Positions 25,302 through 61,180 of a stretch of DNA of 64,000 nucleotides are shown one piece after another. The stretch comes from Azolla caroliniana (Eukaryota > Plantae > Polypodiophyta): the NCBI GenBank assembly GCA_043228905.1, contig JBHGNT010000008.1, positions 558,001-622,000 of the forward strand. The letters are read 5' to 3'. The position numbers and the translations under genes were made by a program. The stretch's first letter is position 1, and the number at the start of each line of letters is the position of its first letter. The notes beneath the pieces were generated by a model. It was given only the letters and a program-made list of their open reading frames with translations. It searched no databases and had not been told where the DNA came from.

Positions 25302-27014
25302 GGATCTCGTTCCTCACCCCCCGAACAAGAAACCAATTGGTTGCAGGTGGATTTACAAGGTGAAGCACAATGCCGATGGTTCCGTAAATCGCTTCAAAGC
25401 ATGGCTCGTTCCAAAAGGCTACGCACAGACACACGACGTAGACTACGAAGAAACCTTTGCCCCAGTGGCAAAGATGACGACAACACGGATCGTAATCGCG
25501 CTAGTAGCAGCAAAAGGGTGGCACCTCCATCAGATGGACGTGAAAAACGCTTTGCTCCAAGGAGAGCTAGAAGAAGAGGTGTATATGACACAACCACCTA
25601 GATTCGAATCGCCTAATCATCCGCACACCATATGCTGACTCAAGAAGACACTCTACGGCCTCAAACAAGCACCGCGTGCTTGGCACTCGAAGATCACGCA
25701 GTATCTTCACCCAGTCGGATTTTGGATGTCAAAATCCGATACATCTCTGTACATCTGCAATGAGTCAAATAGCCCGATCGTCATCATTCTATACGTGGAT
25801 GACTTGGTTATTGGAGGAAAGGATCTCACTGAGATTAACAAAGTTAAATCACATCTTTCCAGTAGATTCGAAATGAAGGACCTGCACGAACTTCATTACT
25901 TCCTAGGTATTGAAGTAATTCGGACACCAGTCGGGATCATGATCTCACAACGGCACTACATTCTCAACTTACTCTACAAGTTCAGAATGATAGAGTGCAA
26001 ACTTGTGACTACCCCTCTTGAACATAATCTCAAGATCGATGCTAGTTCTGGCACGACCGCGAGTGAGTCGACTCAGTATCGTCAACTGATTGGCAGTCTA
26101 ATCTACCTAACCATTACACGACCCGACCTCAGTTATTCAGTCGGCCTACTTAGCCAATTCATGCAGAATCCAAGAAACCTTCACCTCGGTTGCGCTAAGA
26201 GGATACTACAGTATGTCAGCACAACAGTGGATTATGGCATCTTGTATAAGTCAAATACGACCATTCAACTTGAAGGGTACACAAATGCGGACTGGGCAGG
26301 ATACAAAGTGGATAGACGATCCACATCCGGATTCGTCTTCTCCTTCGGCAGCGGAGCGATCTCCTGGAGCAGCAAGAAACAACCGACAATTGCACAATTG
26401 AGCACGGAAGCCGAATACAGGGGCGCGGCAATCACCGCATGTGAAGCTGTATGGCTTAAGCGTTGTCGTGTGGCGCATGACACACGTGCCAAACGTCGTG
26501 ATGTGCGTGTAACAAGTGCGGACAAGCACCGGGCCTCTATCCACTAGTGGTTATGGAGGATTGATGATGGGATTGTTCAAGATAACGGAACCACGGAAGG
26601 ACTAGCGCAAGCAATGAAATGACGGAAGGACTAGCGCAAGCGAGAAGTATTAAAGATAAATTGATAGATAAATACAAGCGGGAATTCCTATTCCCGGTTT
26701 GAACCATTGACTTCAAAATTAAGATAGAAGACACCTTACCAACGAGATAACTAGAACTTATTAATTATTATTGATTGCATACATTGTCTCCCCCTTTTCT
26801 TTCCCTTTCTCTCCTTCTTATATAGATGCCCCCATGCATATGTGCATGTGAGGGTGTAGTACATGCATACAATGCATGAGATGCATGCGATGCATGATCG
26901 CCATTTGGCACTCATGCATCACATGTGATGCATGATGACCATGTACCTTATCTAAGCTCTCAGTTTCGTGTGAAAAAGTACAATGAACAAAAATAACTTT
27001 CAAATAAAACAACC

Positions 27015-27068
27015 TAGTCTAATGGTATGTCTATTGCCTCCTATCTTTGAGGTGTAAGGTTCAAAACC
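27015..27068 (+). promoter_or_regulatory. tRNA-like Pol III type-2 module (A box plus B box) in LTR K
   Basis: TAGTCTAATGG ... GGTTCAAAACC, starts 43 nt apart. Confidence 0.6.
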
Positions 27069-27145
27069 TTTACTTGCAGCTCATTGTATGCGTTAGGCTT
27101 ATTATATATATATGTGTAATGATCACCTAAAAACACATCACACGT

Positions 27146-27798
27146 TGTCGGTGAAGAAAACCGTCCACAAGCGGAATCGGTGCACCGGAGCGTAGGAACC
27201 GGCTCTTCATACACGTGCGCCTTATGTTGTACATAGAAGATCCTCGGTAGGTAGGAAGTTAATAGGAAACGGCTCCTTCCTTGCATATAAAAGGAGGGAG
27301 ACAAGGAGGGGAGGGGGGATCGCGAAGGAAGGGAGGACGAAGTGCTGTCGGATTGCGGGCCGAAGGCTTCTCTCTCTTCCAAACTTCATAGCTTCTTTCT
27401 GTGCAAGTTTCGGTAGGCTCGCACTGTTCTGAGGAATGCCCGAGTGCTTCCGGCAGCACCTCCAACCTACTTCTTCCTTTCTGTACGTTTACGAACAGGC
27501 ATCGGCATCTGTTCGCCGGCCTGTTCGAACAGGCATCGGCATCTGTTCGCCGGCCTGTTCGGTTGTAACCGACTTCGTGCTTGTTGTTTGTCTTGTTTAT
27601 ATATATTTCTACATACATTCGTGTCTCTCTGTGTCGCTGTCGCACTCACGTCTTTGTGTCGAAGGGCCGTGTCCCTGTGAATCTACGCTCGCACCTTGTG
27701 GGTCTCTTCCCCTCCCCTCCCCTTTTCTCTCTTGCTCTTCGGTACAGGACCCCCGAGGTCCCGCCTCATTCCACGCATCCGCGAGGGATACCTCGACA
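27146..27798 (+). mobile_element. Gypsy solo LTR L (H-related family) nested in K
   Basis: TGTCGGTGAAGAAAAC...CTCGACA, TSD ACGT/ACGT, homologous to the H LTR (ACGAACAGGCATCGGCATCTG). Confidence 0.9.
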
Positions 27799-28486
27799 AC
27801 GTGCACATTAACCATCACCCCTTCCATACATGTGCATATTACACCTTCTCGATTTTCCTCGTTCCACGTGATTTTCACACCGTTGCCGAAAATCTTCACG
27901 ACAGCGTATACTAAAAGATATGGGTGTACCCATCATAGATCCAATATGCCTATACTGCGACAACATGAGCAGTATCTACCTCGCACATAACCCCGTATTT
28001 CATGCATGGACTAAACACATCGAAGTGCACTACCACTTCATCCTCGAGCGCGTCCAGGCCGGACAAATTGACCACCAACACATCAGCACGCATCTACAAG
28101 TTGCTGATATCTTTACGAAGGCCTTAGGCGTCGACAAGCTCGGGCAATTTGCATTGGCTCTTGGTCTCATGTCGTCCACATTGCCGAGCTTGAGGGGGAG
28201 TACGCAGACGCAACAGGATAGGCTACGCAATACGCAACAAAGCCGACTAGACAAGTCGAAGTACGAACCGAACGACTTTCCGACAGATGAAAGTAGTGTT
28301 CGAAGGGGCGTGTTGAGAATCGAACTCAACTTCTCATAGATAGGTTTCGCACTAGCTCATGGACATTCTAGGCTAGTTTTGTAAATAGTAGAAAGGGCGC
28401 TTGCCCTAGCTTAGTTGGTATATAAACCAACTCATTGTAATTGAATTACTGTTGGATGTATTTCGTTTTGTTAATATCATATACAA

Positions 28487-28541
<55 letters not shown>

Positions 28542-28771
28542 GTTACACACACACACACACACACATACATTCACCTTCTGCTGCATTGCAACCACTCTTG
28601 CCTTCCCATTTCTTAACACCTACAATCAATCATTCCCAAGGGGGTAATCAAGCAATTGTCTCTTCTTGCATAGGATTTTATCACAAATTGACAAGCAAGC
28701 CCACACCTCTATCGTGATTAAATATTTTCTTCGGAATAGTAGTACTGATGAAGGAAAAGCCTTTTTTCCAT

Positions 28772-29203
28772 TGTCGTGAAGATTTTCGGCAACAACATAA
28801 AAATCGCGCGGAAGGGACAAAATCAAGAAGGTGCAATGTGTGCACATGTGGAAGGGGTGATGGTCACACATGTACACTAGCATGTTGTACATAAGATTGA
28901 AATGAGAATAGTAAAAGGAAGGCTAGGTGTAAGGTTAAACATATGCACATTTCTCAAACACTTGTAAATATAAAAATAAGACTAAAGCCTAATAGCATTT
29001 GAGTACATACAGAGGGGTGCAAGCAAGGTTTGAACCTTGCAACTCCAAGATAGGAGAGAATTGACTTACCATTAAAGCTACTATTGAGTGATTTAGATTT
29101 TGTATATTTTCTTCTCATATTCTGTATTCCATAAGAAATAAATGTATAAAACCGTGTGCACAAAACCATGGTTTAAGCCTATGGTTTTGTGCATGTCATA
29201 AGC
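28772..29203 (+). mobile_element. Partial gypsy LTR J (K-related), interrupted by copia D
   Basis: Starts TGTCGTGAAGATTTTCGGCAAC, the reverse-complement homolog of 27810-27903. Confidence 0.75.
29026..29080 (-). promoter_or_regulatory. tRNA-like A/B-box module in LTR J
   Basis: Minus strand TAGCTTTAATGG ... GGTTCAAACCT, 44 nt apart; T-arm stem GCAAGG/CCTTGC. Confidence 0.6.
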
Positions 29204-31483
29204 TGTAGGGAATGCGGTCCCTCCGGATGGCGTAGGACGAGGCGGATCAGGTGAATTTGGAAGGATATATGGAAGCCGAACCGGATGGACCCGGAAGGAG
29301 TCCGACCAGATCCGATGTGAACCATGAGAAGGGACATATTGGTAAATATATTCCTGTTAAGAATCAAGCTCAACATAGTGCAACGTGTTAACGCACCTTT
29401 TGAGAATCCATGATTACTCAAAGGTCAAGAGTCACACCACTACTCTCTACACATTAACTATGTATCATAGAATCATATTCTATGACACATAACTAATGAG
29501 TTACATATTCCCCATGACTATGAGTCTTCACATTCCCCAAGAGAGAGAGTGGTTGTTGTAAAGTTAATGAAAAGAGAGGGTGACTCTATATAAAGCACCC
29601 TCCTCATACTTCATACTAAGTCGGTTGTGACTCCTTGTAATGCTACATTTTTGTATTTCCTATTCTACTTGTGAATATACACCCTCTTCTTGAGTATTCC
29701 TTTTTCTATCTATCTTGTGTTCTCTCTTCTCTCCTCTAATTCCTTTCACACATACACATAGCACACATCTCTTCCGCTACACAAGAATCATGCCCGATTC
29801 TTTACATGGTATCAAAGCGATTTGGTAGCTTGATCTAACGCACTCGCCTCATCGTGATTGTGTGTTGTGCTCTACGTCGACGTTCAAGAAGAACCGGCTC
29901 ATCGCTATCGTAGTACCACTACATAGCTCGCGTTCGAGAGAGAAGGAAAAGAAGAAAGGAAGCTTAATAGACAATGAATACTCAAATGGGGAGCACTCTC
30001 CCTAGCGAGAAGTTGGACCGAAACAACTTCGCATCTTGGGAGTACAAGATGCACCAATACCTTGTCGGCCAAGGCTATGGGGGTTACATCAAGGGAGCAC
30101 AAGAAAACCGACCTGACCCAGAAGACGCTGACTATGCAACGTGGGAGCAAGCGACAAGCCGAGTGATATATTGCTTGGCGACATGTGTTCACGACCACAT
30201 GCTCGGGTACATTCGAGAAGTCGAGATGCCAAAGGAAGTGTGGGAGAATCTACGAAAGATTTTTGCCGCCAACATTACCGCAAGAAAGCTTCAACTCCAC
30301 CAAGAGTTGAACAACATCCAACAAAGGGATATGTCCATCCAACAAAGGGATACGACTCGCTTGGCTCGATAAGTGTCAATGTGGACGATGATGAGATGAT
30401 GCAAATATGCCTCGACGGCCTTGTACCATGATTCGGCGCGATGCAGACCACCCTACTAGCACGGGAGAATCCACCCTCCTTCTTCGATCTTCAATCTATG
30501 TTGTTGGTCGAAGAAAACCATGTTCGAACGAGGAGCAAAGCCTCGGAAGGTCACATGCTCTACACGCATTCGGACGGAGGAAGAGGACGCGGCAAGAAGA
30601 GGCCGATTCGGCCAAGGACGAGGCGGACAAGGGCTAACTTACGAAAACAACTCATAATTTCGATATCAAGATGGAAGCCATCGAGGAACCTTCAGAAGAA
30701 GGGGGAGCTTCTATTCCGGTCCGAATCGACAAAGCTCGGTCAAATGTAGATATTGCGGAAAAATCAGTCACCATGAAGAAGAATGTCGTAAAAGATACGT
30801 GAGTCGGATTCCACTAGCTGACAACTCACCAACTACGCCATCAATTCCGACTATGATGATCGCGGCGGAGTGTTCGTGATGAGACATAGAGCGAATTATA
30901 TGTCGGCCTCTACTTCTACTAGTGCCTCCGGTCTGGAAGATGTAAGGTTCGTCGATTCCGGTGCCTCGAACCATATGACGTCGCATCAAGAATGGTTCCG
31001 AGAACTTCGAGAGCTGGACCGACCCGGCTATGTCGAAACCGGAGAGGACACTACGCACCCGATTCGGCACATCGGCAATGTTCCGTTTCGAGAAGAAGGT
31101 AAGAAAAATTATATTAAAAATGTCTTGCATGTACCAACTATCACGAAGAATTTGGTCTCGGTCGGCCAAATTGTAGAGTAAGGAATGCAAGTACGATTTA
31201 ATCAAGGCGATTGCTTCATCGAAAAAGAGGGCCGACTCATCGCTCGTGGACGAAGAGAGGGCCAAATGTTCATTCTTGACTCACACGAGATGAAATCGGC
31301 CATGTTCGCAAAGGGCATGAAAGCCGATTCCGACATAGAGTTATGGCACAAGCGGATTGGCCATATCAACCTCCAAAAGCTCAAGGCAATAAAATCGAAA
31401 TGAGTCATCATCGGACTCTCGACATTCACGGAGAAAGAGATTGAAGGCGTATGTGCCGCTTGCCAATTCGGCAAGCAACATCG

Positions 31484-34400
31484 TGTTGGGAAACGACCCT
31501 TCTATTAACCTTCACCGCTCGGCCACAACCGAGTGATCGCGAATCAATGGAGCAGAAAATGGGAAATACAAAGATTAGAGAGGACACACGATTTATCGTG
31601 GAAAACCCTGTACGGGAAAAAAACCACGGGAGTACGAGACTCCAAACCAACACTATGCACAGAAAGGTATACAATGGCGAGCTACAAGGCGACGACCTTG
31701 AGCTCGCTGTCCTCGCCACAGGCGGCGGAAATACACAGAGGCGTCGTCCTCTTCCTCTCTCGCGCTTTATCTCTCTCTCTCTCTCTCTCTCTCTCACGGC
31801 TGCTCCCTCGTCACTCCTCTTGAGTGGAAAAACAGAAAAATGATAAGCAACAACAAAACTGTTTGCCCTAAGTCATATTTATACATATATGACTTTAGGG
31901 CTATTTACAACTATGGCCTCAGGGGCCCTTAGCAGACATATTCACGGATATGTCCCTGCATCCGGATCTCTCTCCGGGTACATTCGTCATCCGACTCCGA
32001 AGTCGGGGTCTTCATCATCCGGTTCCGAAACCGAAACCGGGCTGGTCGGCATTCATCTCCGATATCCGACCATCCCATCCGAAGGGACCGTAATCCCAAC
32101 AAACTCCCCCTTCACTTCGGCATGGGATGTCTTTCCAATCCGATCCTCTTCCGGCATGCTTCCAGCTTGTCGGGTGTGAGCACCTTGGTCAGCATATCCG
32201 ACCCATTCTCGTCCGTGTGGATCTTCGTCAGCACGAACTCCTTGTCTTCTATCCTTTCCCGAATCCAGTGATATCTTCGCTGGATGTGCTTCGTCCGGGA
32301 GTGATAGGCCGCGTTCTTCGCAAGGTGGATTGCACTCTGACTGTCGCAGTAGAGTCGGTACTCCTCCTGCCGGATACCGAGCTCTCTAATGAAGTCCTTC
32401 ATCCATATCATTTCCTTGCCGGCTTCAACAGCTGCCATGTACTCCGCCTCCGTGGTTGACAACGCAACCGTCTTCTGCAGCCTCGACTGCCATGAAACAG
32501 CTCCCCCTGCATACGTCATCACATACCCTGATGTGGACCGGCTGGTATCTGCATCAGCCGACATATCCGAATCAGTAAAGCCGTCAAGTTCGGGCTTACC
32601 GGAGCCGAATCGGAGGCACACATTTGCCGTGCCCTTCAGGTATCGGAGTATCCACTTGGCCGCGTTCCAATGCTCTTTGCCGGGATTGCTCATGTACCGG
32701 CTCACCACTCCGACTGCATATCCGATGTCCGGTCTCGTACACACCATGGCGTACATCAAGCTCCCGATGGCTGAGGCATATGGTACTTTCATCATATCCT
32801 CCTTTTCAGCCTTTGTCTTGGGACTTTGCTTGTTGGACAGCTTGCAGTTTGCCGGGAGGGTCGATCCGACCGGTCTTGCTTCCGACATGTTGAACCGGTG
32901 AAGCACCTTCGTCACGTACTTCTCCTGTGACAGCCACAACTGCTTCTTCTTCCGGTCCCGGATGATGTGCATCCCTAGTATTTGTCTCGCCGAACCCAGG
33001 TCCTTCATTGAGAAGGTTCGGTGAAGAGCCTTCTTCAGCATCCGTATCTTGACCTGGTCCCGTCCGACGATCAACATGTCGTCCACGTACAGGAGGAGTA
33101 TTAGAAAGTCTCCTCCTTCGAACTTCTTCACAAACACGCAGTGGTCGGACTGCGTTTTGAGGTACCCTTCGTCGGTCATGAAGGAGTCGAACTTCCGGTA
33201 CCATTGCCGGGGAGCCTGCTTCAGTCCGTAAAGGCTCTTCTTCAACCGGCATACCAGGTGCTCCTTCCCTTTCTTCTCGAATCCTTCCGGTTGCTGCATG
33301 TAGATCTCTTCATCGAGGTCACCGTGAAGGAATGCCGTCTTCACGTCCATCTGTTCTACCTCGAGGTCCATGCTTGCCGCTATGCTCAGCACCGTCCGGA
33401 TGGAGGTCATCTTCACTACCGGGGCAAATATCTCGTCGAAGTCGACGCCCTTCTTCTGCTGAAACCCCTTCACCACGATCGTGGCTTTGTATCTCGGGGG
33501 GTTTCCGGCATCTCCCGGTTTCAGCTTGAACACCCACTTGTTTCGAAGTGCCCGCTTTCCTTTCGGCAACTCCACAAGTTCATATGTGTGGTTCTCATGC
33601 AGGGAATCCATCTCGTCCTGCATGGCACTAAACCACCTGCGGCTCTGGGTGTCGTGCTTTGCTTCTTCAAAGCTCTCCGGCTCCCCCTCGTCGGTTAGCA
33701 GCACGTGCTCTGGATCCGGAAATCTCCGGGGGGCCCTCCTCTCTCTTAGAGGGTATCTCCGTTCGGGAGCTTCGGTAACCGGTTCTTCCGATTCTTCTTC
33801 TTCATCCGAATCCATTTCGGGATCGGGGCCGGTTTCGGTATCATTTTCATCTTCTTCGGCCGGTTCTGTTTCTTCACCGTCTTCGGCCGGATCCTCGAGT
33901 GATAACCGGTCCCTTGCCGGTCGGGACTGCTCCTCGTAGAGTTGATCCTCACCGGTCGACTTGGAGCTCTTCATCTTCTTCTCCGACTCCCAGTCGGCGA
34001 GTGTCTTGTCCTCCATGAAGATGATGTCTCGACTCCTGAATATCTTCTTGTCGACCGGGTCCCATACTCGGTAGCCGAACTCGTCGTCGCCGTAACCGAG
34101 GAATATGCATGGCCGGGTCTTTGGATCTAACTTTCCTCTCCGGTCCTTTCCCACATGCACGTATGCGAGACACCCGAACACCTTCAGATGCCGGTAGGAC
34201 ACTTCCTTACCGGTCCACACTTTCTGCGGCGTGTCTCCGTCCAAAGGTACTGAGGGTGATCTGTTTATCACGTATGTCGCCGTCGACATTGCCTCAGCCC
34301 AAAACCCCTTGGGTAATTTCGCATGCGCCAGCATACTCCGGACCCTCTCCATTATGGTCCGGTTCATCCTCTCGGCCAGCCCGTTCAGTTCCGGCGTCTT

Positions 34401-36501
34401 CGGCACAGTAAACTCGAGCCGGATTCCCTTCGAGCGACAGTACTCCTGGAACTGCCCCCGGTATTCCCCTCTGTTATCCGCTCGTATCGCCTTCAGCTTC
34501 TTGCCGGATTCCCTTTCCACTCTCGCGTGAAGTTCTTTGAAGACGCACAACACTTGGTCCTTTGTCTTCAACGGTGCCGTCCACAGCTTCCGACTGTAAT
34601 CATCAATGAATGTTACGAAGTACTGGGCTCCGCCATGTGACTTCGTTTCTACCTGACACACATCAGTGTGCACCAACTCCAATGGTGCGCTACGTCTCGT
34701 CGGTGGCCTTGAGTGGAAAGAGGCTCGGTTCTGCTTACCGGCCAGGCAATCGGTGCACTTCTCCAGGTGCACATGCTTCACTGGAATGAGGTTGTCTTCT
34801 GCAAGCCTCTTCATCCCCTTCTCACTCATGTGGCACAGTCTCTTGTGCCACAGCTCACCGGCAGTGTCGGCTGCCACGTTCAGCTCTTCCGGACATAACC
34901 GGGCATTCATCAGGTACAGTGTGTTGACTTTCCGAGCCCGAGCCACTATCAGGCTCCCCTTGCTGAACTTCATTCCGCCGTTCCGGATGCTACCTGTGTA
35001 GCCTTCATCGTCTAGCCTCCCGGCCGAAATCAGGTTCAATCGAACCTCCGGAACGTGTCGGACATCCTTCAGCAGCATTTTGCATCCGGTCGGGGTTGTC
35101 AACCACACGTCTCCTATGCCGACAATCCGGCACGTACCTTCATTCCCCATCCGAACACGGCCATGCTCGCCGGCTGTGTAGGATGAGAAGTATCTTCTCT
35201 CCGGGGTCAGGTGGAACGATGCTCCCGAATCGACCACCCAGGTCGTCTCATCGCCGGCAATGTTTAGTTCACCTTCTTCGGTGATGAGCATGATTTCTTC
35301 CTCACTTGCTGCGAGTGCCGTTGTTCCTTTCCGGTCCTGCCCTTGCCGATCCGAACCTCTCCGGTCCGTGGCTCCCCGGTATGCACCGTTTCTCTCCGGT
35401 GACTTCTTCGAATCGGTGTCGTCGGCTCCGTTGTCCTTTCGGTAATGCCGACAATTCTTTCGGAAGTGCCCCGGTTTCCCACAGTGGAAGCATGTGGGCC
35501 TTCCTCTTGACTGCGACCGGGTCCCCGACTTCTCCCGTCTTTGCGGACTCCGGTTCCATTGTCTTCCCCGATCCGATTCGGTAAGCAGCGCCTTCGGGTC
35601 GGAGGCCGGTTCTTTATCTCTCCGACGCGCTTCTTCGTTCAAAATACTTGTCTTTACCGTTTGCAAGGACAAGTTATCTTCTATGCAGGAGGTGCTGAGA
35701 GTCACCACCAAGTTCTCCCAGCTTTCCGGCAATGTACACATCAGGATGATGGCTTGCATTGCGTCCTCCAACGGGAACTTGATCGCCGCAAGCTGATTCA
35801 CGAATCCCATGAACGTGCTTACGTGTTCGACCATACTCTCGCCGTCCCGATACTTGAGGTTCACTATCTTCCTCATCAGGGAGGTCCGGTTCAACGCATT
35901 CTTCCTCTCGTAGAGGCCCGACAGCTTCTTCCACATCTCATATGCGTTGGTGTCGTTCGCCACGTGTTGTAGGACGCTTACATCGACATATTGTCGGATC
36001 GTCGCTACGGCTTTCCGGTTCAGGAGCTTCCACTCCGACTCAAGTACCCCCTTCGGTATTTCCGACCTGTCAATCGGTTCGTACAGGTCCCGAACAATCA
36101 GAAGATCCTCCATCTTGATCTTCCAGTCGGCGTAATTCTGTGCATTCAGCACCATCATCCCCGGCTGCCCGCTGCCGCCGCCTTCCATTTTCTGCAGCAG
36201 TTCGCTCTGATACCAGATTGTTGGGAAACGGCCCTTCTATTAACCTTCACCGCTCGGCCACAACCGAGTGATCGCGAATCAATGGAGCAGAAAATGGGAA
36301 ATACAAAGATTAGAGAGGACACACGATTTATCGTGGAAAACCCTGTACGGGAAAAAAACCACGGGAGTACGAGACTCCAAACCAACACTATGCACAGAAA
36401 GGTATACAATGGCGAGCTACAAGGCGACGACCTTGAGCTCGCTGTCCTCGCCACAGGCGGCGGAAATACACAGAGGCGTCGTCCTCTTCCTCTCTCGCGC
36501 T

Positions 36502-36538
<37 letters not shown>

Positions 36539-45495: not shown

Positions 45496-45513
45496 TGGTG
45501 AACCCGACGTGAA
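45496..45513 (+). other. Primer-binding site complementary to the tRNA-Trp 3' end
   Basis: TGGTGAACCCGACGTGAA, 4 nt after the LTR end. It is the reverse complement of ...TTCACGTCGGGTTCACCA (plant cytosolic tRNA-Trp 3' end as I recall it). Confidence 0.8.
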
Positions 45514-48500: not shown

Positions 48501-50975
48501 CTTCATTCAAGACCTGCAACCGGTCAACAGAGTGACCATTCGGAACGCAGGAATCGGACCAACGATAGACGAGTTCGCAGAGGCCTTCGCCGGAAGGTTG
48601 ATCTACTCGGGGTACGATCAGTTCCAACTAATCGTAGAGAGCAGAGACATTACGACGATGCGGACTCCTCTCGGCCTAGCACGGATGTGCACCCTACCGC
48701 AATGAGGGACGAACTTGGTGGCCCACATGGTGAATGCGATGAACAAGGTGCTGAGGGATTGTATCCCGGATGTCACCATGCCATTCTTGGACGACATCCC
48801 GATCAAGGGATGTCCAGTGGAGGAAAGGGACGAAACGATCGGACCGGACGGATGCCGGCAATTCGTGACGACACACATTGACGACTGCGAGAGGGTGCTG
48901 TAGAGGCTAGAGGACGCGAGGCTCACCTTCTCCAGGGAAAAATCGGCCTTCGGGCAATCCGAGATCATGGTCGTCGGACATCTATGCGGACCGTATGGCC
49001 GGAAACCGTCTCGAGCAAAGGTGGAAGCCATCTCCGCAATGAAGCCCGACTGTAACTCGGTCACGGAGGTACGGAGGTTCTTGGGAGCATGCGCGTTCTA
49101 CCACATATGGATCCCACATTACGCCCACGTTGCAGAGCCGCTATACGGGTTGCTGAAAAAGGGGCGAAAATTCGAGTGGCGAGACGAGCATGCGGAGTCG
49201 GTCCGAAAGATGAAGGAGGCTCTTGCTGCAGCTCCGGCACTCCGGAAGGCTATCTACGAGAAAGGCACTCCCATCTACATAACGGTAGATACGAGTCCGA
49301 CCGGAATCGGATGGGTCGTCAACCAAGAAGATGAGGATGGCATTCGGTTCCCAATCCGGTTCGGCGCGAAGGTCCTCAGTGAGCGACAACGAGGATACGC
49401 CCAGGTCAAACGCGAACTCTGGGGTATCGTTTCGGCGATGAAGGCCGATAAAGACTATCTGATTGGGACAGAGGTGATTATCGAGACGGACTGCCTGCTG
49501 ATTCTCGGCATGGTTTCTGGATGCGCAACCCCGGACCTGGCAATGCTCAGGTGGATAGCGTACATCAAGTCCCTGGATCCGGAAATACGACACATTTCCG
49601 GGAAAGACAATGCCATGGCCGACATGCTTTTGAGGGCGCGATTCGACGACGAGGGCGGCATGGTTTCGGAGGACGAGGAAGTCGGCGTAGACTTCTTCGA
49701 GGCGGCTTACGTAACAACCGAGGGGGGAAGCACTCCGGCGCTTGACGATTTCAACGAGAGCAAGTACGACGGGGAGTGGCTGCAAATTGGGGGATTCTTA
49801 AGGACAACGATGCCGGACGCATCGTGGATAAGGGACGAGGCCAACCGGATCCGGAAGAAAGCGTACCGATTCTTTCTCCGGGACGAATACTTGTGGAAGC
49901 ACCCGAAGAAGAGGAACGGCATCCCGCTCTGAGTAGTGGCGATGAAGGAGGAACAGGAGGAATTGCTAAAGGCCTACCACGACAGCCCCTGGGCTGGATA
50001 CCGTGGGATGTGGGCCACGTTCGACAAGCTAAAGGGGAAGTACTGGTGGCCGGGACTGTACCGGGACGTGCATCAGTTCGTGACAACTTGCGAGAGCTGT
50101 CAAATGCACTCCATAGTCCGACATCGAGACGAGCTTCACCCGACTTACCCTCCGGCCATCCACTTCAAATGGATGGTAGATTTGGTGACGATGCCGATGG
50201 GTGTAGGGCAGATGCGATATCTGGTGCTGGCCCGGGAAGACCTGACGAACCAGGTGGAAGGCCGAGCCCTGCAGAACAAAACGACCGCGGCCGTGTGTCG
50301 GTTCCTGATCGAGGACGTGATATGCCGGTACGGGTGCGTCGGAAAGATCGTGGCTGACCGCGGGGAGTTGGACGCCGAAGAGGCCGAGGAGTTGTTCGAC
50401 CGGTTGGGGGTCAAGCTCTCGCTCACCACAGCGTACAATCCGGAGGCAAACGGGAAGGTAGAGCGCGGGCACGGGCCAATCGTCAAAGTGCTAGTCCGGG
50501 CATGCGGAGACCAGGTCGGGAACTGGTCGCGGCTGTTACCTTACGCCCTATGGGCGGACCGGACAACGCACAGCTCGGTAACCGGGTTCATGCCGTCAGA
50601 GCTCATGTTCGAACAAAAGCCGATCATGCCGATGGAACGGACGATCTCCTCTTGGGCGACAGTAGACTGGAGTGATGAAATGATTCGGCAAGAACTACTA
50701 GCGGCGCGTATACGACAGCTCAAGCGAAGGCCAGAGGACGTGGAACGAGCGGCGGAGAGACTTCGGACGGCAAGGATGAGGAACAAAGCCCGGTTCGACC
50801 GAACGCACCGGCTCAGACCAAAGAGAATCGAGGAAGGCGACTGGGTGCTAGTCTACGACAGCAGCCTCGACAACCAGCACCGAGCAACACGGAAGTTTGC
50901 AAAGCGGTGGTTCGGGCCTTACGTGGTAACGGGAGCCAACGACAACGGGACGTATCACCTGGCGGAACTCGACGG

Positions 50976-52425
50976 TGTCGCGAAAATACGACGAGGATAC
51001 GCGAACTTTGAGGCAGGACCCCGGGGCCTCCGACCAGAAGATATCGGATTCGTATGATTATATTAAACAATTAATGCAAAATGATAAAGATTCACAAATT
51101 TCATTAATAAAGGGAAAAGAAATTACAATATGTCCCAAGATTGGGATTTAGAAGTTTTAGGTTTACTAAGATTAATAGAAAAGAAAAATTAGGGGTTTTG
51201 GTAGATATGGCTTCCGTAGGGAAGATTAGGATTCGGTCCTATGAGTATTATGGCTTCCTAAGATAAGGGAGTTGAGAAGAAAAAAAAATCCAATAATATG
51301 GAGAGTCTATTCTAGTGTAGGGAAAAAAAATGCAATAAAAATGGAGTTCTCTCTTGATCATAGCCTTTTCACTTTTTGTTGCATGGCCTCTATTTTTAGT
51401 TGCTTAGCTTTTTCTTTTGGTTGCATGTGATTGTCCACATGACCTTTACTTTTTCCATGCACTCCCTTCTTTAGTTGCTTGCGTCCACATGGCCTTTACT
51501 TTAGTTCTCTTCACTTTACTTTAGTTTGTTGCATGATCCAATCTTTCGTCCGTCCGCGTCCAACATCGTCCGGTAGCCGGTTCCATTTTGCTTGCCGGTC
51601 GGTTCCGGTTCCGATTTTGCTTGCAGACCGATTCCGGTTTGCTTGCCGGTTTCGGTTTCGGTTTTGCTTGCCGGCCGGTTTCCGGTTCCGATTTTGCTTG
51701 CAGACCGATTCCGGTTTGCTTGCCGGTTTCGGTTTCGGTTTTGCTTGCCGGCCGGTTTCCGGTTTTGCTTGCCGGTTCCGGTTCCGGTTTTGCTTGCCGG
51801 CCGGTTTCCGGTTTTGCTTGCTGGTTCCGGTTCCGGTTTTGCTTGCCGGCCGGTTCCGGTTTGCTTGCCGACCGGTTTCGATTCCGGTTTGCTTGCCGGT
51901 TTCGGTTCCGGTTTTGCTTGCCGGTTCCGGTTCCGGTTTTGCTTGCCGGCCGGTTCCGGTTTGCTTGCCGACCGGTTCCGATTCCGGTTTGCTTGCCGGT
52001 TTCGGTTCCAGTTTTGCTTACCGGCCGGTTTCCGGTTTTGCATACCCGTTCCGATTCCGGTTTTGCTTACCGGCCCGTTTCCGGATTTGCTTACCGGACC
52101 CGTTTCCGGTTTTAGGGATTTTGGCCACCATCATCCATCAAGACAAAGTGGCCAAAGTTCTCTCAGCACAAATGAAAAATGAGGGAGCTCAAGGTGTTTA
52201 TATAGCCAGGGCCTTAACTTTCCTATCTATGTGGGATAGTTCTAATATCTCTATCTAATCAAACTTCATTTTCCCATAACTTGATATGTATTTCTCCATT
52301 TTATATATAGTAAAATACATTTTGAAGCTCTTGAGTATATTCATCTTTCTATAGTAAGCTACCAATCTAATCTATAATAATTATTTCATTATTTTTTTAC
52401 ATAGTGTGTGAAGATTCACACGACA
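50976..52425 (-). mobile_element. 1.45-kb gypsy-type solo LTR I inserted in the integrase tail of H
   Basis: TGTCG...CGACA termini, TSD ACGG/ACGG. Removing it restores LAELDGTRMAIP. Minus-strand TATA (CTATATAAA) near 52196-52204. Confidence 0.88.
51575..52112. repeat. Compound GC-rich minisatellite (TTGCTTGCCGG and TTCCGG modules) inside LTR I
   Basis: About 20 TTGCTT modules interleaved with CCGG-rich hexamers. Confidence 0.95.
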
Positions 52426-55400
52426 ACGGTACGAGGATGGCGATACCAGTGGCGGGAAAGCGGATCAAAGCGTTCAAGAAGCGCCACGACGGCGAATCGG
52501 ATCTAAGAGGCCTAGACAACGACGATGATCAGTCCAAGGCGGAGGACGAACCGATGGACGAGGAACCGGAAGCGGGGCCGTTTTTCTCCAACCAGAACCC
52601 AATTTTGGCGCATACCGGTGGATGCGCTGTTAGGTGGGGGCGGATGTCGTGAAGAAAACCGTCCCCTAGCGTAATTGGTGAATAGTACACAGGAATCGGC
52701 CCTTCACGTGTGCGCGCTCTTAATGTATATAATAGAGAATTAGGTACAGAGAGAGATCCGGGGTAGTTAGATTCGGTAGGTAGGAAGTAAATGAGGGAGA
52801 CGACTCCCCTCTTGACGCTATAAAGGAGAGGAAGACGCAAGGAAAAAAGGGATAGCGCATTAAGGAGGACAAAGTGTTGTTGGACCGGAACCGAACGCTT
52901 CTCCTCTGTCTGTTCTCTATTGCCCTTCTCTGCAGGTTTCGGAAGGCTCGCGCTGCTTCGAGGAACGCCCGTGTGCTTCCGGCAGCACTTCCATCCTATC
53001 CCCATTTCGTGCGTAGACGAACAGGCATTGGCATCTGTCCGCCGACCTGTTCGGTTGTAGCCGCTCGCGTGTTCTGCTGTGTACTCGTTATTCGTTAATA
53101 TACAAACACTTGTTTCTTCCTGTCTCTGTGTCCATTCGCGTCTTCTGTGTTGACGGGCCACGCCCCTATGTTTCTTTGCTCATACGTGACCGGGCGTCTC
53201 TCTCCTTCTCTTTCCCCTTCTATCACCTGCTCTTCGGTTCAAGACCCCGGTGGTCCCGCCTTGTTTCCCCACGCACGCGCGTAACAACGCGACAACGCCT
53301 TGATAGCCCTCTCTAAAAATCCCTTCGTTCGCCACTGCCGAGGGTTTCACAGTTCCGCTCATGGTTCGGTCGCACGGTCAGGAATTGGACGGAGTGTCGT
53401 CCATCTTGGCTCTTTACGCGCGCTATGCCGAACCGTTATCCAGCACCCATGTCTCCATACGCGTCGCCATAATGTACGACTCGTCAAGTATCACCAGGTG
53501 CGAGAAAGTCTCCTGCACGAAAACGTGTTGATCGATCTCAACGTTGCCAATCTTGACGCGTACATTCGAGCACGCCCCGTGCAGCTCGTCCGTAGCACGG
53601 GTCGTCGCGCGTATGTTCCAACTATGCTTGGTATTGATCGGCTACTTCCCCTTTTTATAGAAGTCCATGGACATCAGGTTGATCTCCGAGCCATGGTCTA
53701 TCAATGCCACCATTGGCTCCTGGATGTCCCCGATCCGAACAGGGGTTCCCATAGTGGCTCTGACCCAGTGCGACCTCGAATAGTGGCTCTCTACCAACTC
53801 GTCTTCTAGGTGAGTGGTTCGCACCTCCACCGGCTTCTCCAAGTCCACGATGGAATTGTGGAACTCCTTCTTGGCGATCCTGAGCACCTCCCTCAGCGAC
53901 AGCTCCACTTTGTTGTCGACGATCTGCTCTTCGAGGACCTTCCGCAGGTCCGTTGACCTCTCAATCTCCGTGTTCAACCGGTAACCGGCCCGCTTCGTTT
54001 TGTCCGGTGCGCCGGGGTTACCAACATCGTTTTGCTTCTACCCGAACCGGGTCTCGTGCCGTTGTGAGGGCCCAACACCTCCAGCTTTTCCCGCGCGCTT
54101 GTCTTCTACCAGAACCTCGTAGTTCTGGCACGCGGCTTCCACGAAACCAGTCTTCTCCTCAACCGGATCATCCCGTCCAGTGACCTCCCGGACCCACGGC
54201 TCCGCGTGATCCACTTCTTCCCTCTTTAGTCGTACGCCAGAGAGGCCTTCTAGCACCAAGGGCCAGAAGCCAGAGTCTTTCGTTTTCCAGTCTTCGTTAC
54301 CTCCTACCCGGATTCCGGCCGATGCCGAATAATGGATGGCCTCTGCATGGCGCGTCTCCACTTCTTCCATTAGCCGCTTCATCCCGCCGCACCCGAAATT
54401 TGTCTCCGTGGCTCTCCGGGTATCACCAGCGTGCACCCGTTTGTTCCATAGGTACACCACATTACCCCTGAGGGCTTCGGAAAACTCCGCGCAGTCTCGC
54501 CGGTTGTGTCCGACCGCGTCGCACCACATACACCGTTGTCCAGCCGGTGGCCTCCGGTCGCGTGGCTGCCCTCCACTATCTCTCCGGTCCTGCACGATCT
54601 GCAGGTCGCGCACCATTTGTGTCACCTCCTCAAGAGCCGCTCCTCCGGATGGGCCCTTGACCGCGTCAGTCGATGTTGAGCCCATGTCAAGCCAATCCCG
54701 GGTTTCCTCTTTTCTTGTCGGCGAAGGTTCATCGAACTTCCTTGCCAGGACGTGTCTCGCCGCCGCCAATCCCTCGTCGCCCTACTCACGCCGCTTGTCG
54801 AAACGGATGCAAAATCCTTTGACCATGGCCCAGTCGGTCGTCAGCCCATCATCTATCTCCAGTAGGAGACCATCGCTTTGATGAACAACAGGACATGGCT
54901 AGTGTCTAGCACGGTCCTATCCAGTGCCGAGAGCCGCGCGAAGCGTTCTTCGAACTCCTGGAGGAGCGCCGACGCGTTCCTCCCCTTTCCGGGGGTCTCC
55001 ACCGACTCCATGAAGTCCCGCTTCGATAACCAAAGTGTATCATCAAGCCCATACCTTTTGAGGAGCCGTGCTTCGAATTCTCCCACGGTCCGCCATCCAG
55101 CCTCTACCTCGAGCACCTCTGCGTGAATTCCTGGTGTCGCCACCCGAGGGAACCCGGTCAGATGCCTATCCTCTGGAATGTCCCTCATCACCATCTCGGT
55201 TCGGTAGGCCACCAAATAGCTCGTGGCGTCCTTCCTACCGAACCGGCCTATCGTGTCGACAATTGCTTCAATGGTCCTGTCGAGGGCACCTGTGCCCTGG
55301 CGAGCACTTACTATCCAATCGACTACTGCCGCCATGGCTTCGGCGAGCTCCGATCCCCTCATCTTCGACTCCTCTGCCGCCTTTCTCACATCGGGTTCAC

Positions 55401-58375
55401 CAAATATGTCGTGTTGTTTCACTTTTGCGTGTGAAATAAGACGGGACCACGGGGGCCCTGAACCGAGGAGCAAACAAGAGGAAGCAAAGAGCGCACACGC
55501 GTAAGGCCTATTAGACCCGTTTGCAACCGACAACACTTGCCGGCCGAATGAACCACCAATGTGTATACCGACTTATTCAAGAAACACACTCGCGGGAAAA
55601 AGGGAGAGTCCCAGAAACACATATAGACTAAAACAGGAGATTCAATTACAATAACAGTAACGATTACAGAGATTGCAATATTACAATCGGATAGTCGGCG
55701 ACAGACCCAACCCAGACAATCACACACCCACACACACACGCAGTAGAACCTTCGCCAGAAGCGCACGGGCTTTCCTCCAAGCAAAAGCATCCGACTCCGA
55801 AAAACCTGCAGAGAATGATGATAATAGATAGAGGAGGAGAGAGCTCGGTTCCCAGTCCGACATCACCTCGTCCTTGCCCCCAGACGCGATAGCCCTTTCA
55901 GCCTTCTCCCCTTTCCTTTTTATAGGCCGCCGGGGAGGGACCGTTACATCCTATCGCATCACCTTTATTCTCTGCCCCTTTAGATAGGGATCCGCCTCGA
56001 TTTACTAGCCTACTATTACACCCTTCCTAGGATATGCACATCACGCCGGCCTATTCTTAATTATGTACTCCTTATCAATATTTGTGCCCGCGCGTAAGGG
56101 CCGGTTCATACACCTTTTTCACTGATTTCGCCTAAGGCCAGTTTTCTTCACGACACCGGGTACGAGCCAAAGCGGACACCGGAGATCGTCCGAACCGGAT
56201 ACTAGCCGAAGTGGACATCAATCAAAAGGAACCGACCCGAGTTGAGCTTGAGGGAGCATGTTGAGAATCAAGGTCAACATAGTGCAACATGTGAACACAC
56301 ATTTTGAGAATCCATGATTACTCAAAGGTCAAGAGTCACACCACTACTCTCTACACATTAACTATGTGTCATAGAATCATATTCTATGACACATAACTAA
56401 TGAGTTACATATTCCCCATGACTATGAGTCTTCACATTCCCCAAGAGAGAGAGTGGTTGTTGTAAAGTTAATGAAGAGAGAGGGTGACTCTATATAAAGC
56501 ACCCTCCTCATACTTTATACAAAGTCGGTTGTGACTCCTTGTAATGCTACATTTTTGTATTTCCTATTCTACTTGTGAATATACACCCTCTTCTTGAGTA
56601 TTCATTTTTCTATCTATCTTGTGAGCTCTCTTCTCTCCTCTAATTCCTCTCACACATACACGTAGCACACATCTCTTTCGTCACACAAGAATCATGCCCA
56701 ATTCTTTACAGTTCCTATGTGCCATTGAGGCCATACTGTAAATAGCCCGAAAAGTTATATGAATATAAATATAACTAGGGCAACTAAATGTATTGATTTA
56801 TGATAACATTTTAGTTGGTTGTTGTTGAAGTATAGATAGACAGAGAGAGGGTGAGAGAGAGATACAGAAAGTCATTTTTGTTGTAACCGCCGGTTGGCGA
56901 AGATACAGAGCTCAAGGACGTTACCTTTGAGACTCTTAGTGAAATACCTCTTACCTATAGTGACCCTATTTGGAGTTTTATGAAATCCTGTGGTTTTTTT
57001 CCCGATTAGGGTTTCCAGGTTAATATTCCGTGTGAGACTCGGTTGTCGCTTTCTATCAATCTGGTATTAGAGCATGGAAGGTCCATTCGGCAGCATGTTC
57101 AAGCTCACCGGCTCCAACTACTCTATGTGGAAGTCGAAGATGAGGGACATGCTAGTGGTTAAAGATCTTTGGTTGCCGGTATAGTTCAGGGACATAAGGC
57201 TAAACCAAGTTGATGCATCAACATGGGAGGTGATGCACATGAAGACAACAACCTACATTAGATGCTTCATCGACATGAGCATGTACAACAACTTCAATGA
57301 GGAGAAGAAAGCGCACGAGCTCTAGGAAAAGATAGGCATCATGTTTGAGAACAAGAATGCCGTAAATCGAGTCTCGGTATTTTGGAAGTTAGTGAAACTC
57401 AAACATCAAGACGGCTCCAGCATGGCAGAGCACATGAATGCCTTCAAGGGGCTTATAAATCAGACTACCTCATTGGAGGCATCCTACAAAGCCGAAGACC
57501 ACAACTTTGTGAGGATGGGGAATGAAGGTGCATGTCGAATTGTTGAAATAGGAGACGTGTTACTGATGACATCAACCGGGTGCAAGATGCAACTGAAAGA
57601 TGTCTGACACGTTCCAGATGTTCGGTTGAACCTGATATTAGCTAGTCGGTTGGATGATGAAGGCTACAAGGGTAGCATTCGGAACGGAATCATGAAGTTC
57701 AACAAAGGGAGCCTGATCGTGGCCCGAGCCGGAAGATCAACACATTGTACTTAATCCATGCCCGGATATGCCGAGAGGAAGCAAACATAAGATCCGACAC
57801 TGTCAGTGAGTTGTGGCACAAGAGGTTGTGTCACATGAGCTAGAAAGGGATGAGAAGACTTGCCGACGACAACCTCATTCCGGAGGTGAAAGACGGGCAG
57901 CTTGAAAAGTGCACCAATTTCTTGGCCGGCAAGCAGAACCAAACCTCTTTCTTGTCGAGACCACCGATGAGGTAGAAAGCACCGTTGGAACTTGTGCATA
58001 CTGACGTATGCTCCGTAGATACGAAGTCACATGTCGGATCATTGTACTTCGTGATGTTTATAAATTACCACAACTTCCAGTTGTGGGTATCCACACTAAA
58101 GATGAAGGATCAGGTAATCCATCTTCTAATATCGGGGGCAGTTCGAGGAGTATTTCCGGTCAAAAGGAATCCGGCTCGAATTTACCGTGCCGAAGACGCC
58201 GAAACTGAACGGAATGACCGAAAGGATGAACCAGACTATGATGGAGAGAGTACGGAGTATGTTGGCACATGCTAAATTGTCCAAGACGTTTTAGGCTGAT
58301 GATGGCGACCTATGTGATAAACATATCACCCTCAACATCCTTGGAAGGAGATACACCACAAAGAATATGGACCGG

Positions 58376-61180
58376 TGTTGTGGTGTGGCTTGCCCATAAG
58401 CGTAGCATTGCGTAGACGAAAGATAACGTGAAAGTGAGGAAGGAATCGTTGGGATTTTGGACGGAAGAGACAAAATAGTAGAAATAGATCAATAGTGATC
58501 AAGAAGATATGACAAGATAGGATATAGAATGATATTTGAAGGAATGAAAGAGATTTATAATTATTTGATAAAATGGTTGCGAGCCGTTGAACGTTCGAAC
58601 TTTGTCTCATAAGGTAATCACTCTTCTCTTTCTTAATAACAATCTTCACTTCAATATTTCAATGAAGATAAGAATTGAACCGTCGCCCTTTCATTGCGAG
58701 TTGAGCACCACAACCGCCAAGCTAGCTCTTCTCTTGTTTTTTCTTTTTCTCTTGCTCTTTTTATCTTATGATATCTCTTATGTAATATAATTCTATTTGA
58801 TTCTCTTGATATATCATATAATATAGTTCTTCGATTTCAAATCCTTCCATATCCTTGTGACTATACTCCCTTCTCCTTTTATAGGAAGGGGAAGGTTTTG
58901 CATGTGGGCCATATGACACACATGCAAAGAGGGCTCTTGCATGTGTGCTATATGGTGCACATGTAGTACATTACATGGTTTAGACTATATATTAGAAATT
59001 CAAATAATATACCATACATAGATATACAAATCATGGATGTTGGGTAAATGGTAAGGTTTGAGACTTGTAAGGTAGATGTTGTTGGTTCAAGTCCTCTCTT
59101 GCCAATGTAATATGCTATATGGTCCTTATGTAATACATTATATGGTTTTATGGCTTAAACCATACAATACTACTACAAATAAAACAATACATTTATATAT
59201 AATATAAATATAGGGTAAATGGTAAGGTTTGAGAGTCGTACGGTGGGGCTTATTTGTTCAAGTCCATGTAATATAATATATATACTTTTTAGTTGTCTCT
59301 ACATATAATGTTTAATGTTTAATATTATCTTTATAAAATATTATCAAGATTTATTTTATTTTAGTTATGTATTTATCTTATTGTAGACTTTTAATGTGAA
59401 GCTTTCGTACTTCATGACATCCACCCGCTCTAGACCTACACATCACCTGGCATGTTCCACTATCTTTCATCTTCATGTTGATCTATTGGAGGAGGTTCAA
59501 GCTCAAACCTTTTCTTAAATAATTTATCCTCTTTCCAGCTACCACGTCTAGGATTAGTGTTCCATCCAATTCACTAAGCTTATAAGTAAAGTTATCATAT
59601 ACTTTTTTTTACTATGTAGGGCCCAAACCATCTTTCAACAAACTTGCGAACAGTGATATGTTGATTATCTAAACTGCTATCATACACAAGCACCCAATCC
59701 CCCTCTTCTATTTTCTTAGGCCGAATTCTATGAGCTTTATCAAAACGAATTTTATTGTTCAATCGAGCCTGTTGTAATCGTTGGGCTGCTAATTCTATAT
59801 CTTTAGGTCGACGCTCTAATTGTTGAATTTGTAAAGCAAGCAATTCTTCTTTGCTCACCTCTTCTCTCCATGGAATAGATGTCCATGACATAATTGATTC
59901 TTCTATTGGCATGATGAGCTTTTGACCAAGTATCAATTCGGCTAGAATGTATCATGTTGTCGAACTATGCATTGTCCGATTCGCCCATAGTGCATAAGGT
60001 AGGATGCGTGGCCAATCTCTAATTTTACCTTTACAACTTTTCACAATTGCCTTAACTATTGGGCTATGTCCTCTTTCAATCTTTCCATTAGCCTCTGGAT
60101 TATAAGCAGTTGTAAGTGATAATTTGACCCCTATGCGACTGAAGAATTCTCTAGCTTCATCAAAATCAAGTTCTCCTCTATCCGCAATTATTTTACCAAC
60201 ACACCCATAACGACATATTACATCTTCTAACAAAAATTTACATACAACTCTAGTTGTTTTTTGTCGTAGCGGTCTTCCTTCTACTTGGTTTGTAAGGTCT
60301 TCTCTTGCTAGACCTAAATATCGCATTTGACATTCCCCAAGTGGCATTGTCACTAGGTTGACCATCCATTTATAATACATTGATGGTGAATATGTTGGTT
60401 TTAGCTCATCTCAATGTCGAATAGTTGAGTACCTCTAGCAGACCTCACAAGTTTCCACAAATTTCATTACATCTTTATACATATGTGGCCACCAATACTT
60501 CTCTTTCAACTTCATAAATGTCGCTCAAATGCCTCTATGTCTTGCCCACAAACTATCATGGAATTCAATATTATAATTAATTTTCTCTTAATATCATCCT
60601 TACCAATGACTCGAAGAGGATTCTCAGTTGGCCTTTTTGGATGCTTCCATAAACACCCTTCTTGTAAAAAAAAACGTGAATGCCCGTCTTCAAAATTCAT
60701 TTAATTGTTTCTTTGACCATGATGGGTTGGCTTCTTGAGTCTTTAAAAAGTTTCCTATTTCTAACCATTGACCTTCATACTCCGTCCGTGTCTTTGAACA
60801 TTATGCTTACATTAAATTCATCATGAGGCTCAATAGATACTTGATGAGTAACTTGATGGCTTATAGTTGCCCAATTCTTATCTTCAGTTTCCATCACCTT
60901 TTCATTTATGAACCTTGCCCTTGACAGCATATCTGCAACTAGGTTCTCTTTGCCCTTTATATGCCTCAATTCTAGGTTCATGGTTTTGATGTATGCAATC
61001 CACCGAAGCATTGCAATACTTGGTGTCGTGCAACTTGTTATCATCCCGATGAGTGGCAGACAATCTGTTTCAACGACTACATTTGCTCCAATCAAGTAAT
61101 CTCTATCTGTTTTTAGTGCAGTAAGCAAACCCCACAATTCTCGTTTAACTTGCACATAATTTCTTTGTCTACACTGACAC
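58376..61180 (-). mobile_element. AT-rich Phygy-like gypsy element G (3' LTR plus INT/RH, 5' part lost)
   Basis: LTR 58376-59419, PPT-like tract at 59420. INT (AREDLTNQVEGR, YNPEANGKIERG, WFGPY) and RH (VKRELWG, ETDCLP) homologous to F and H. Confidence 0.88.
59041..59265 (+). promoter_or_regulatory. Two tRNA-like A/B-box modules in the LTR of G
   Basis: TGGGTAAATGG (59041) ... GGTTCAAGTCC (59084) and AGGGTAAATGG (59212) ... TGTTCAAGTCC (59255). Both 43 nt apart. Confidence 0.6.

What the first reader, a model, noticed from the sequence alone, without database searches (positions are those of the whole stretch)
26460..58376. A gypsy clade that inserts into NCGN: every 4-bp TSD is centred on CpG
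Seen: all seven gypsy-type insertions with both flanks visible have 4-bp TSDs with CG in the middle: GCGT (K), ACGT (L), ACGC/ATGC (M), CCGG (F), GCAC/GCGC (N), ACGC (H), ACGG (I). One-sided junctions agree: CCGG (G) and CCAT (J, a plausible deaminated CCGT). The two TSD mismatches are the expected 5mC deamination products. The four copia TSDs (CCTAC, GGATC, CATCG, ATTCC) share no such pattern. Even at 10% CpG per site, 7 of 7 has probability 1e-7. The integrases end after the GPY/F module with no chromodomain. Inference: the integrase reads CpG, possibly methylated CpG, directly. That would steer copies into CpG-rich young TEs and could explain the deep nesting. I am not aware of this being described for plant LTR elements.
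Basis: partly seen in the sequence, partly recalled or inferred. Interest (0 to 1): 0.85.

Follow-up and report, generated by a model that had tools for sequence, protein, structure and literature searches.

The report
CpG-targeting Phygy-type gypsy retrotransposons
These jumping genes almost always land in the middle of a CG pair, most often at ACGT, likely because their own cutting enzyme reads that sequence; the habit is real but was already reported for the Phygy group of moss retrotransposons, and whether the CG has to be methylated is untested.

Summary
All seven two-sided gypsy insertions have 4-bp target duplications centred on CG; five are perfect and two have one copy changed to TG or CA. 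Empty paralogous sites confirm the 4-bp length for three of them. In contigs of related hosts, 77 of 79 unique 5'-LTR junctions have a central CG against a 3.4% background, and both exceptions read TG. The motif is tighter than NCGN: ACGT makes up 35 of 79, and T before the CG is strongly avoided.

It is not new for plants. Neumann et al. 2019 report that Phygy elements prefer NCGN, with 4-bp duplications, a tRNA-Trp primer site and no chromodomain. These elements match on every one of those features. Placement on a tree with Phygy could not be tested.

The likely mechanism is direct, symmetric sequence readout by the integrase on bent target DNA. No methyl-reader domain was found, and nothing here tests methylation. 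CG targeting alone does not explain the nest: copia elements nest there too, and many insertions lie in CpG-poor DNA.

The parts
44842..53294 (+). Element H: full-length Phygy-type gypsy (650-bp LTRs 44842-45491 and 52645-53294, gag-pro-RT-RH-INT with stops and frameshifts), TSD ACGC/ACGC, inserted in F; 6999 bp without I
45496..45512 (+). Primer-binding site of H, tRNA-Trp type
   Evidence: 16 of 17 bases identical to the printed reverse complement of a human tRNA-Trp 3' end
52633..52644 (+). Polypurine tract of H, shared with 3' LTRs of related families
49933..50975 (+). Integrase of H (zinc-binding HHCC, catalytic core with the ADRGELD motif, most of the C-terminal SH3-like GPY/F domain), interrupted by I
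52431..52643 (+). Rest of H's integrase: last strand and acidic tail, no chromodomain
39906..56155 (-). Element F: full-length Phygy-type gypsy (5' LTR 55407-56155, PBS from 55402, 3' LTR 39906-40659), TSD CCGG/CCGG, holds N and H, inserted in copia D; about 7120 bp without nested insertions
42917..43585 (-). Solo LTR N (H/F-related), TSD GCAC/GCGC, in F's reverse transcriptase
50976..52425 (-). LTR-only insertion I, TSD ACGG/ACGG, in H's integrase C-terminal domain
27146..27798 (+). Solo LTR L (H/F-related), TSD ACGT/ACGT, inside K
26464..27903 (-). LTR-only insertion K, TSD GCGT/GCGT, in copia A's RNase H
38502..39361 (+). LTR-only insertion M, TSD ACGC/ATGC, in copia D; in other copies this LTR end runs into H's primer-binding site
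   Evidence: (joint 39361-45494)
28772..29354 (+). LTR J (K family), one-sided junction CCAT; other copies of the family mostly show CG there
58376..61209 (-). Element G: truncated member of the same clade (3' LTR 58376-59419, PPT, RH-INT 59463-61209 with ADRGELD), one-sided junction CCGG
16479..28618 (+). Copia A (host of B and K), 5-bp TSD CCTAC; control without CG centring
19602..25301 (-). Copia B, TSD GGATC; control
29355..56710 (+). Copia D (host of E, M, F), TSD ATTCC/GTTCC; control
31484..36842 (-). Copia E, TSD CATCG; control

Best explanation
These are likely Phygy-type non-chromovirus Ty3/gypsy retrotransposons that insert with a 4-bp duplication centred on CG, most often ACGT, likely because their integrase reads the CG step directly as sequence, without needing methylation. 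Shown here: the 4-bp duplication, the near-absolute central CG, the palindromic outer preference (A before and T after the CG, T before it avoided), no orientation bias, and no chromodomain or methyl-binding domain. Inferred: a two-fold symmetric integrase complex bends the target at the central pyrimidine-purine step, as retroviral integrases with 4-bp staggers do, and adds base-specific contacts that accept CG and reject the other flexible steps. Candidate contact points are the clade's conserved, one-residue-shorter ADRGEL motif after the second catalytic Asp and the conserved Gln-His loop of the C-terminal domain. Later deamination of methylated C in the silenced copies likely accounts for the few TG and CA sites.
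For: Window: 7 of 7 two-sided sites. Related hosts: 77 of 79 unique left junctions are CG against 3.4% background (p about 5e-110); G sits at position -2 in 79 of 79; no other offset from -20 to -4 exceeds 5 of 79. Right junctions: 28 of 30. TG, CA and TA steps are each about twice as common as CG in the flanks (0.060-0.074 vs 0.034), yet central CA and TA occur 0 times and TG twice in 79, so bendability alone is not enough. 5' neighbour of the CG, both strands pooled: A 140, C 39, G 24, T 7 of 210; enrichment 2.8, 0.79, 0.67 and 0.09. Mirror pairs are balanced (ACGG 11 / CCGT 8, ACGC 5 / GCGT 5). The rule holds in CpG-poor flanks (28 of 30). Pfam finds no chromo, MBD, SRA or CXXC domain in H's ORFs or in 12 homologues. 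The model is an ordinary integrase whose best matches are PFV and Ty3. ADRGEL: D 140, R 130, G 133, E 134, L 138 of 142. Precedents: retroviruses with 4-bp duplications favour a central YR step and disfavour T first and A last (PMC4422553, section 6); ZAM integrase of Drosophila binds its CGCGCg target directly in vitro (PMC2527525, abstract). That flies have very little CpG methylation is recalled, not from a call.
Against: No biochemical test exists here, and the determinant residues are proposed from alignments only. The abstract of PMC4005685 puts the effect of the Ala188/Ser119 position at bases outside the duplication, so the ADRGEL motif may not read the central CG. Ty3 integrase has a C-terminal loop of similar length, so loop length is not special. 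These TEs are evidently methylated (LTR differences are mostly CG and CHG transitions), so a preference for 5mCpG would look the same in sequence. No Phygy reference sequence could be obtained for a tree.
Confidence: 0.7

Rival explanations
1. The integrase prefers or needs methylated CpG (5mCG), which steers new copies into silenced DNA without a chromodomain.
For: The target is exactly the symmetric dinucleotide that plants methylate. The host DNA is methylated (LTR divergence is dominated by CG and CHG transitions). At least 24 of 79 flanks have a TE-like hit within 200 bp of the junction. The element lacks a chromodomain.
Against: No methyl-reader domain was found. A CG-containing target read by an integrase alone is known from ZAM. 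Three flanks carry host-gene domains (PIP5K, UDP-glucosyltransferase, a weak PPR match), though their methylation is unknown. No direct evidence either way.
Confidence: 0.15
2. Indirect readout only: CG is chosen as the most bendable step for this integrase's sharp kink, or a host factor bound at CG tethers the complex.
For: Central YR selection is general for 4-bp-stagger integrases, and the avoidance of T first and A last matches them.
Against: In retroviruses the YR bias is about a 63% rise over background. Here other YR steps are all but unused (CA 0, TA 0, TG 2 of 79) although more abundant. A tether would not normally fix the register to a single base.
Confidence: 0.12
3. Artefact: the CG is part of the element's end, or arises from selection after insertion or from how the junctions were called.
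For: The independent junctions come from short-read metagenome contigs, and 14 of 20 contigs with both LTR ends have non-matching flanks, as expected of assemblies that are chimeric through the repeat.
Against: The same LTR start is preceded by the polypurine tract, not CG, at 29 internal junctions. The five perfect window TSDs are five different 4-mers. Empty paralogous sites carry one copy of the 4-mer. The search pattern did not constrain the flank.
Confidence: 0.03

Closest known systems
Phygy clade, non-chromovirus Ty3/gypsy of Physcomitrium patens (Neumann et al. 2019, PMC6317226; passages and supplementary table 5 read)
   Same: 4-bp NCGN target duplication, tRNA-Trp primer site, no chromodomain, no extra RNase H, no extra ORF, coding region filling the internal part.
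   Different: Here from another, unnamed host; named homologues are in Riccia, Ceratopteris and Adiantum, so the lineage is not confined to one moss. The motif is resolved to ACGT-biased VCGB. F and H (7.0-7.1 kb) are shorter than the P. patens range (7656-9968 bp). Tree placement untested.
ZAM and Tirant errantiviruses of Drosophila (PMC2527525 abstract; PMC5408687 passages)
   Same: LTR retroelements with a strict CG-rich palindromic target; ZAM integrase binds it directly.
   Different: Target CGCG (central GC, longer consensus CGCGCg), AGT...AnT ends instead of TG...CA, and a different lineage; a functional analogue only.
Prototype foamy virus and other retroviral integrases with 4-bp duplications (PMC4422553 abstract and section 6; PMC4005685 abstract)
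   Same: Same fold, 4-bp stagger, central pyrimidine-purine step, T first and A last disfavoured.
   Different: Their bias is weak and accepts any YR step; here it is about 97% CG, and the motif at the Ala188 position is Glu with one residue fewer.
TatI and Selgy clades (PMC6317226, supplementary table 5)
   Same: 4-bp duplications; TatI also uses tRNA-Trp.
   Different: TatI always has an extra archaeal-type RNase H, not found here; Selgy uses tRNA-Ala. Neither is listed with NCGN.

Membership tests
Phygy (non-chromovirus Ty3/gypsy) | Placement in the Phygy clade on RT, RH and INT trees (the primary criterion) | not testable with these tools
   The REXdb FASTA and element table are too large to read here; no Physcomitrium protein appeared among the 120 hits listed in each (265, 197 and 145 found).
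Phygy (non-chromovirus Ty3/gypsy) | 4-bp TSD with NCGN motif | tested here: met
   7 of 7 in the window, two with one copy decayed; 77 of 79 and 28 of 30 junctions elsewhere.
Phygy (non-chromovirus Ty3/gypsy) | Primer-binding site for tRNA-Trp (81% of Phygy) | tested here: met
   H's PBS matches 16 of 17 bases of the printed human tRNA-Trp 3' complement; F's has one further change; 12 metagenome LTR ends show the same site. The host's own tRNA-Trp was not available (searches found none).
Phygy (non-chromovirus Ty3/gypsy) | Gypsy domain order, no chromodomain | tested here: met
   RT-RH-INT order and acidic tail; no Chromo hit.
Phygy (non-chromovirus Ty3/gypsy) | No extra archaeal RNase H and no extra ORF; polyprotein fills the internal region | tested here: met
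   One RNase H region in H, F and homologues P0121 and P0122; gag begins just after the PBS and integrase ends at the PPT.
Phygy (non-chromovirus Ty3/gypsy) | Length 7656-9968 bp (descriptive; the paper calls size of little use for classification) | tested here: inconclusive
   H 6999 bp and F about 7120 bp without nested insertions fall below the range; families with the longer LTRs of G (1044 bp) or I (1450 bp) would fall inside it (inference).
TatI | Extra archaeal-type RNase H | tested here: not met
   No second RNase H domain.
Selgy | tRNA-Ala primer site | tested here: not met
   The PBS is of the tRNA-Trp type.
Chromoviruses (Tcn1, Galadriel, CRM, Tekay, Reina) | C-terminal chromodomain on integrase | tested here: not met

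The most novel reading that the evidence does not exclude
The catalytic complex of this integrase itself senses 5-methyl-CpG, so the element homes to silenced DNA with no chromodomain and no host tether: an LTR integrase that is its own DNA-methylation reader, spread across liverworts, ferns and mosses.
Probability: 0.15. Interest if true: 0.75.

Novelty: new member of a known kind. Interest (0 to 1): 0.3.

Why it matters
Most plant LTR retrotransposons show no strict target sequence; this lineage is the reported exception. What this work adds is modest: the rule is nearly absolute (about 97%), it is ACGT-biased rather than flat NCGN, it covers several LTR families, and homologues extend to liverworts and ferns. 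My searches of the held library found no mechanism for the Phygy preference. A simple integrase with one-dinucleotide specificity is a clean system for asking how integrases read target DNA, and whether one can read methylation.

Tried and rejected
No whole genome is held, so no genome-wide TSD logo or genomic background could be made for the window's own species. No relative of the integrase was found in viral contigs. A tRNA-Trp gene complementary to the PBS was not found in viral or prokaryotic contigs or in the window. Pairing left and right flanks in metagenome contigs failed: 14 of 20 did not match and the 6 matches were all ACGT/ACGT, so they were counted as single junctions only. Laying contigs on 38300-57000 did not list flank sequences at LTR ends. 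CG density near the site (0.039) versus 600-1000 bp away (0.033) did not differ significantly (n=32, p=0.16). Cluster look-up gave no organism names. The Atlas gave only generic integrase clusters. PMC7466625 (passages) did not tie RLG2 or RLG3 to Phygy or give TSDs. PMC5890265 (passages) gave nothing on target sites. PMC12477314 (passages) does not mention Phygy or CpG targets. Three look-ups in earlier scan notes returned nothing that bears on this clade.
Full report
Observation. The window holds a nest of LTR retrotransposons between about 16.4 and 61 kb. All seven two-sided gypsy-type insertions have the stated ends and flanks: K GCGT/GCGT, L ACGT/ACGT, M ACGC/ATGC, F CCGG/CCGG, N GCAC/GCGC, H ACGC/ACGC and I ACGG/ACGG. 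None matches at 5 or 6 bp. J (28772) is preceded by CCAT and G (58376) by CCGG. Contigs from public runs join across F, N and I with skips of element length plus 4 (16254, 673, 1454), so host paralogues carry a single copy of the 4-mer; the listed joints at H are offset and do not test this. The four copia elements have 5-bp duplications with no central CG rule. Using local CG densities, 7 of 7 has a probability of about 1e-9.

Anatomy. F (minus strand) and H (plus strand) are full-length elements with gag, protease, RT, RNase H and integrase, broken by stops and frameshifts. H and N sit in F, I sits in H's integrase, and F, M and copia E sit in copia D. L and N are solo LTRs 68-76% like those of H. 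K, J, M and I share little more than their termini with H, but three links tie them to the clade. Copies of the J/K LTR are preceded by the same kind of polypurine tract. M's LTR end runs into H's primer site in other copies. An I-type LTR in locus L040 is flanked by GCGG. G is a truncated further family whose integrase has the clade's ADRGELD motif. The primer-binding site matches a printed tRNA-Trp 3' end at 16 of 17 bases.

Independent test. I dropped 3 chance matches that are not LTR-like, 29 internal junctions preceded by the polypurine tract, 1 with too little flank and 8 duplicates, leaving 79 unique outer junctions. Of these, 77 have CG at positions -3/-2 against 3.4% in the flanks; the other two read TG; no other offset exceeds 5 of 79. 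LTR 3' ends were found in 46 loci. After removing PBS-followed, short and duplicate ends, 32 remained, 28 with CG. Two of those are internal junctions (L079, L056); without them it is 28 of 30, the exceptions being ATGC and TCCA. L012 and L070 may be one insertion, and left and right junctions may share insertions, so the pooled 105 of 109 is not fully independent. These LTRs are 66-89% identical to the window's (median 77%), so they come from related hosts, probably few. In runs that hold the window's own DNA and two other organisms, the consensus loose ends before the J/K LTR start end in CG-centred 4-mers in 5 of the 7 listed rows at 28771-28772; one reads TG and one is the polypurine tract (small consensus rows, weak evidence).

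The motif. ACGT accounts for 35 of 79 left junctions (4.6 expected); TCGA and TCGG for none (9.6 and 7.0 expected). Pooled over both strands, the base before the CG is A 140, C 39, G 24 and T 7 of 210 (enrichment 2.8, 0.79, 0.67, 0.09). Mirror-image tetramers are balanced, as a two-fold symmetric complex predicts. Outside the duplication there is only a mild bias (C next to it in 41 of 109, background 22%). TG, CA and TA are each about twice as common as CG in the flanks but are almost never central.

What is known. Neumann et al. [quoted passage not shown] The present elements meet each of these features. TatI (extra RNase H) and Selgy (tRNA-Ala), the other clades listed with mostly 4-bp duplications, do not fit. 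Tree placement, the primary criterion, could not be tested: the two large supplements could not be read, and they would also show whether P. patens Phygy has the same ACGT bias. Named homologues are from Riccia (up to 67% identity over the whole integrase query), Ceratopteris and Adiantum. PMC6911290 (passages) also reports GC-rich centres in 4-bp TSDs and Phygy nesting in P. patens; PMC12885004 (passages) reports Phygy in a liverwort. Searches found no mechanism or methylation test for this preference; subscription journals are not covered.

Mechanism. The integrase folds as an ordinary retroelement integrase (pLDDT 85.5; best matches PFV and Ty3) and ends in an acidic tail. Pfam shows no chromo, MBD, SRA or CXXC domain. 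Retroviral integrases with a 4-bp stagger favour a central YR step and disfavour T first and A last (PMC4422553, section 6), which matches the outer pattern here, but their bias is weak. A 97% CG rule needs base-specific contacts on top of bending (inference). In the profile alignment the clade's ADRGEL motif is one residue shorter than those of PFV and Ty3 and puts a conserved Glu opposite PFV Ala188 (PFV numbering recalled). The C-terminal loop with conserved Gln-His (116 and 108 of 125) lies where I recall PFV Arg329 to be. Both PFV residues contact target bases (PMC4005685, abstract). These are candidates only. ZAM integrase binds its CGCGCg target directly (PMC2527525, abstract), a precedent for CG-rich sequence readout.

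Methylation and nesting. LTR pairs differ mainly by transitions, many at CG and CHG, so these copies were methylated and the decayed TSDs are expected. That says nothing about the state of the target at the time of insertion. The nest has 0.034-0.084 CG per base in most segments against 0.018-0.023 outside it, so a CG rule would give it two to four times more targets. But copia elements nest there without the rule. Among the independent junctions, 30 of 77 measurable flanks are CpG-poor (observed/expected under 0.6) and 28 of those still use CG. At least 24 of 79 have a TE-like hit within 200 bp, with a limited library. Three of the 69 flanks scanned carry host-gene domains. CG targeting may tilt insertions towards young TEs but does not by itself explain the depth of this nest.

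Verdict. A real and strong signal, correctly seen, but an instance of the published Phygy NCGN preference, refined here to an ACGT-biased palindrome. The open part is the mechanism, and methylation reading remains a minority possibility.

Noticed in passing
protein P0233: A distant relative (42% identity in integrase) ends in a PHD finger after the integrase, a chromatin-reader domain where chromoviruses carry a chromodomain.
   Followed up: partly
window 31484-36842: Copia E has an intact 1374-aa polyprotein ORF and LTRs differing by only 2 transitions in 618 aligned bases: the youngest element in the nest.
   Followed up: partly
window 51570-52113: LTR I contains a tandem array of short CCGG-rich units, a dense patch of CG sites inside an LTR.
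   Followed up: no
LTR pairs of A, B, F and H: Transitions in CHG context are about as many as, or more than, those in CG context (H: 10 CHG vs 5 CG), pointing to heavy CHG methylation in this host.
   Followed up: partly
L040, L047, L059, L062, L076, L100, L103: Insertions of this clade into copies of the same clade, including next to the polypurine tract (L040) and next to the primer site (L062).
   Followed up: partly
window 1185-3239 (minus strand): Broken LINE-like element: reverse transcriptase and endonuclease fragments.
   Followed up: no
window 56900-58375: A decayed copia fragment (tRNA-Met primer site at 57062) that G interrupts at a CCGG; J's far end was not found before it.
   Followed up: partly
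L017 and L060: A 3' LTR end followed by TCCA, the one right junction that is neither CG nor a deaminated CG; possibly a real exception or a rearranged junction.
   Followed up: no
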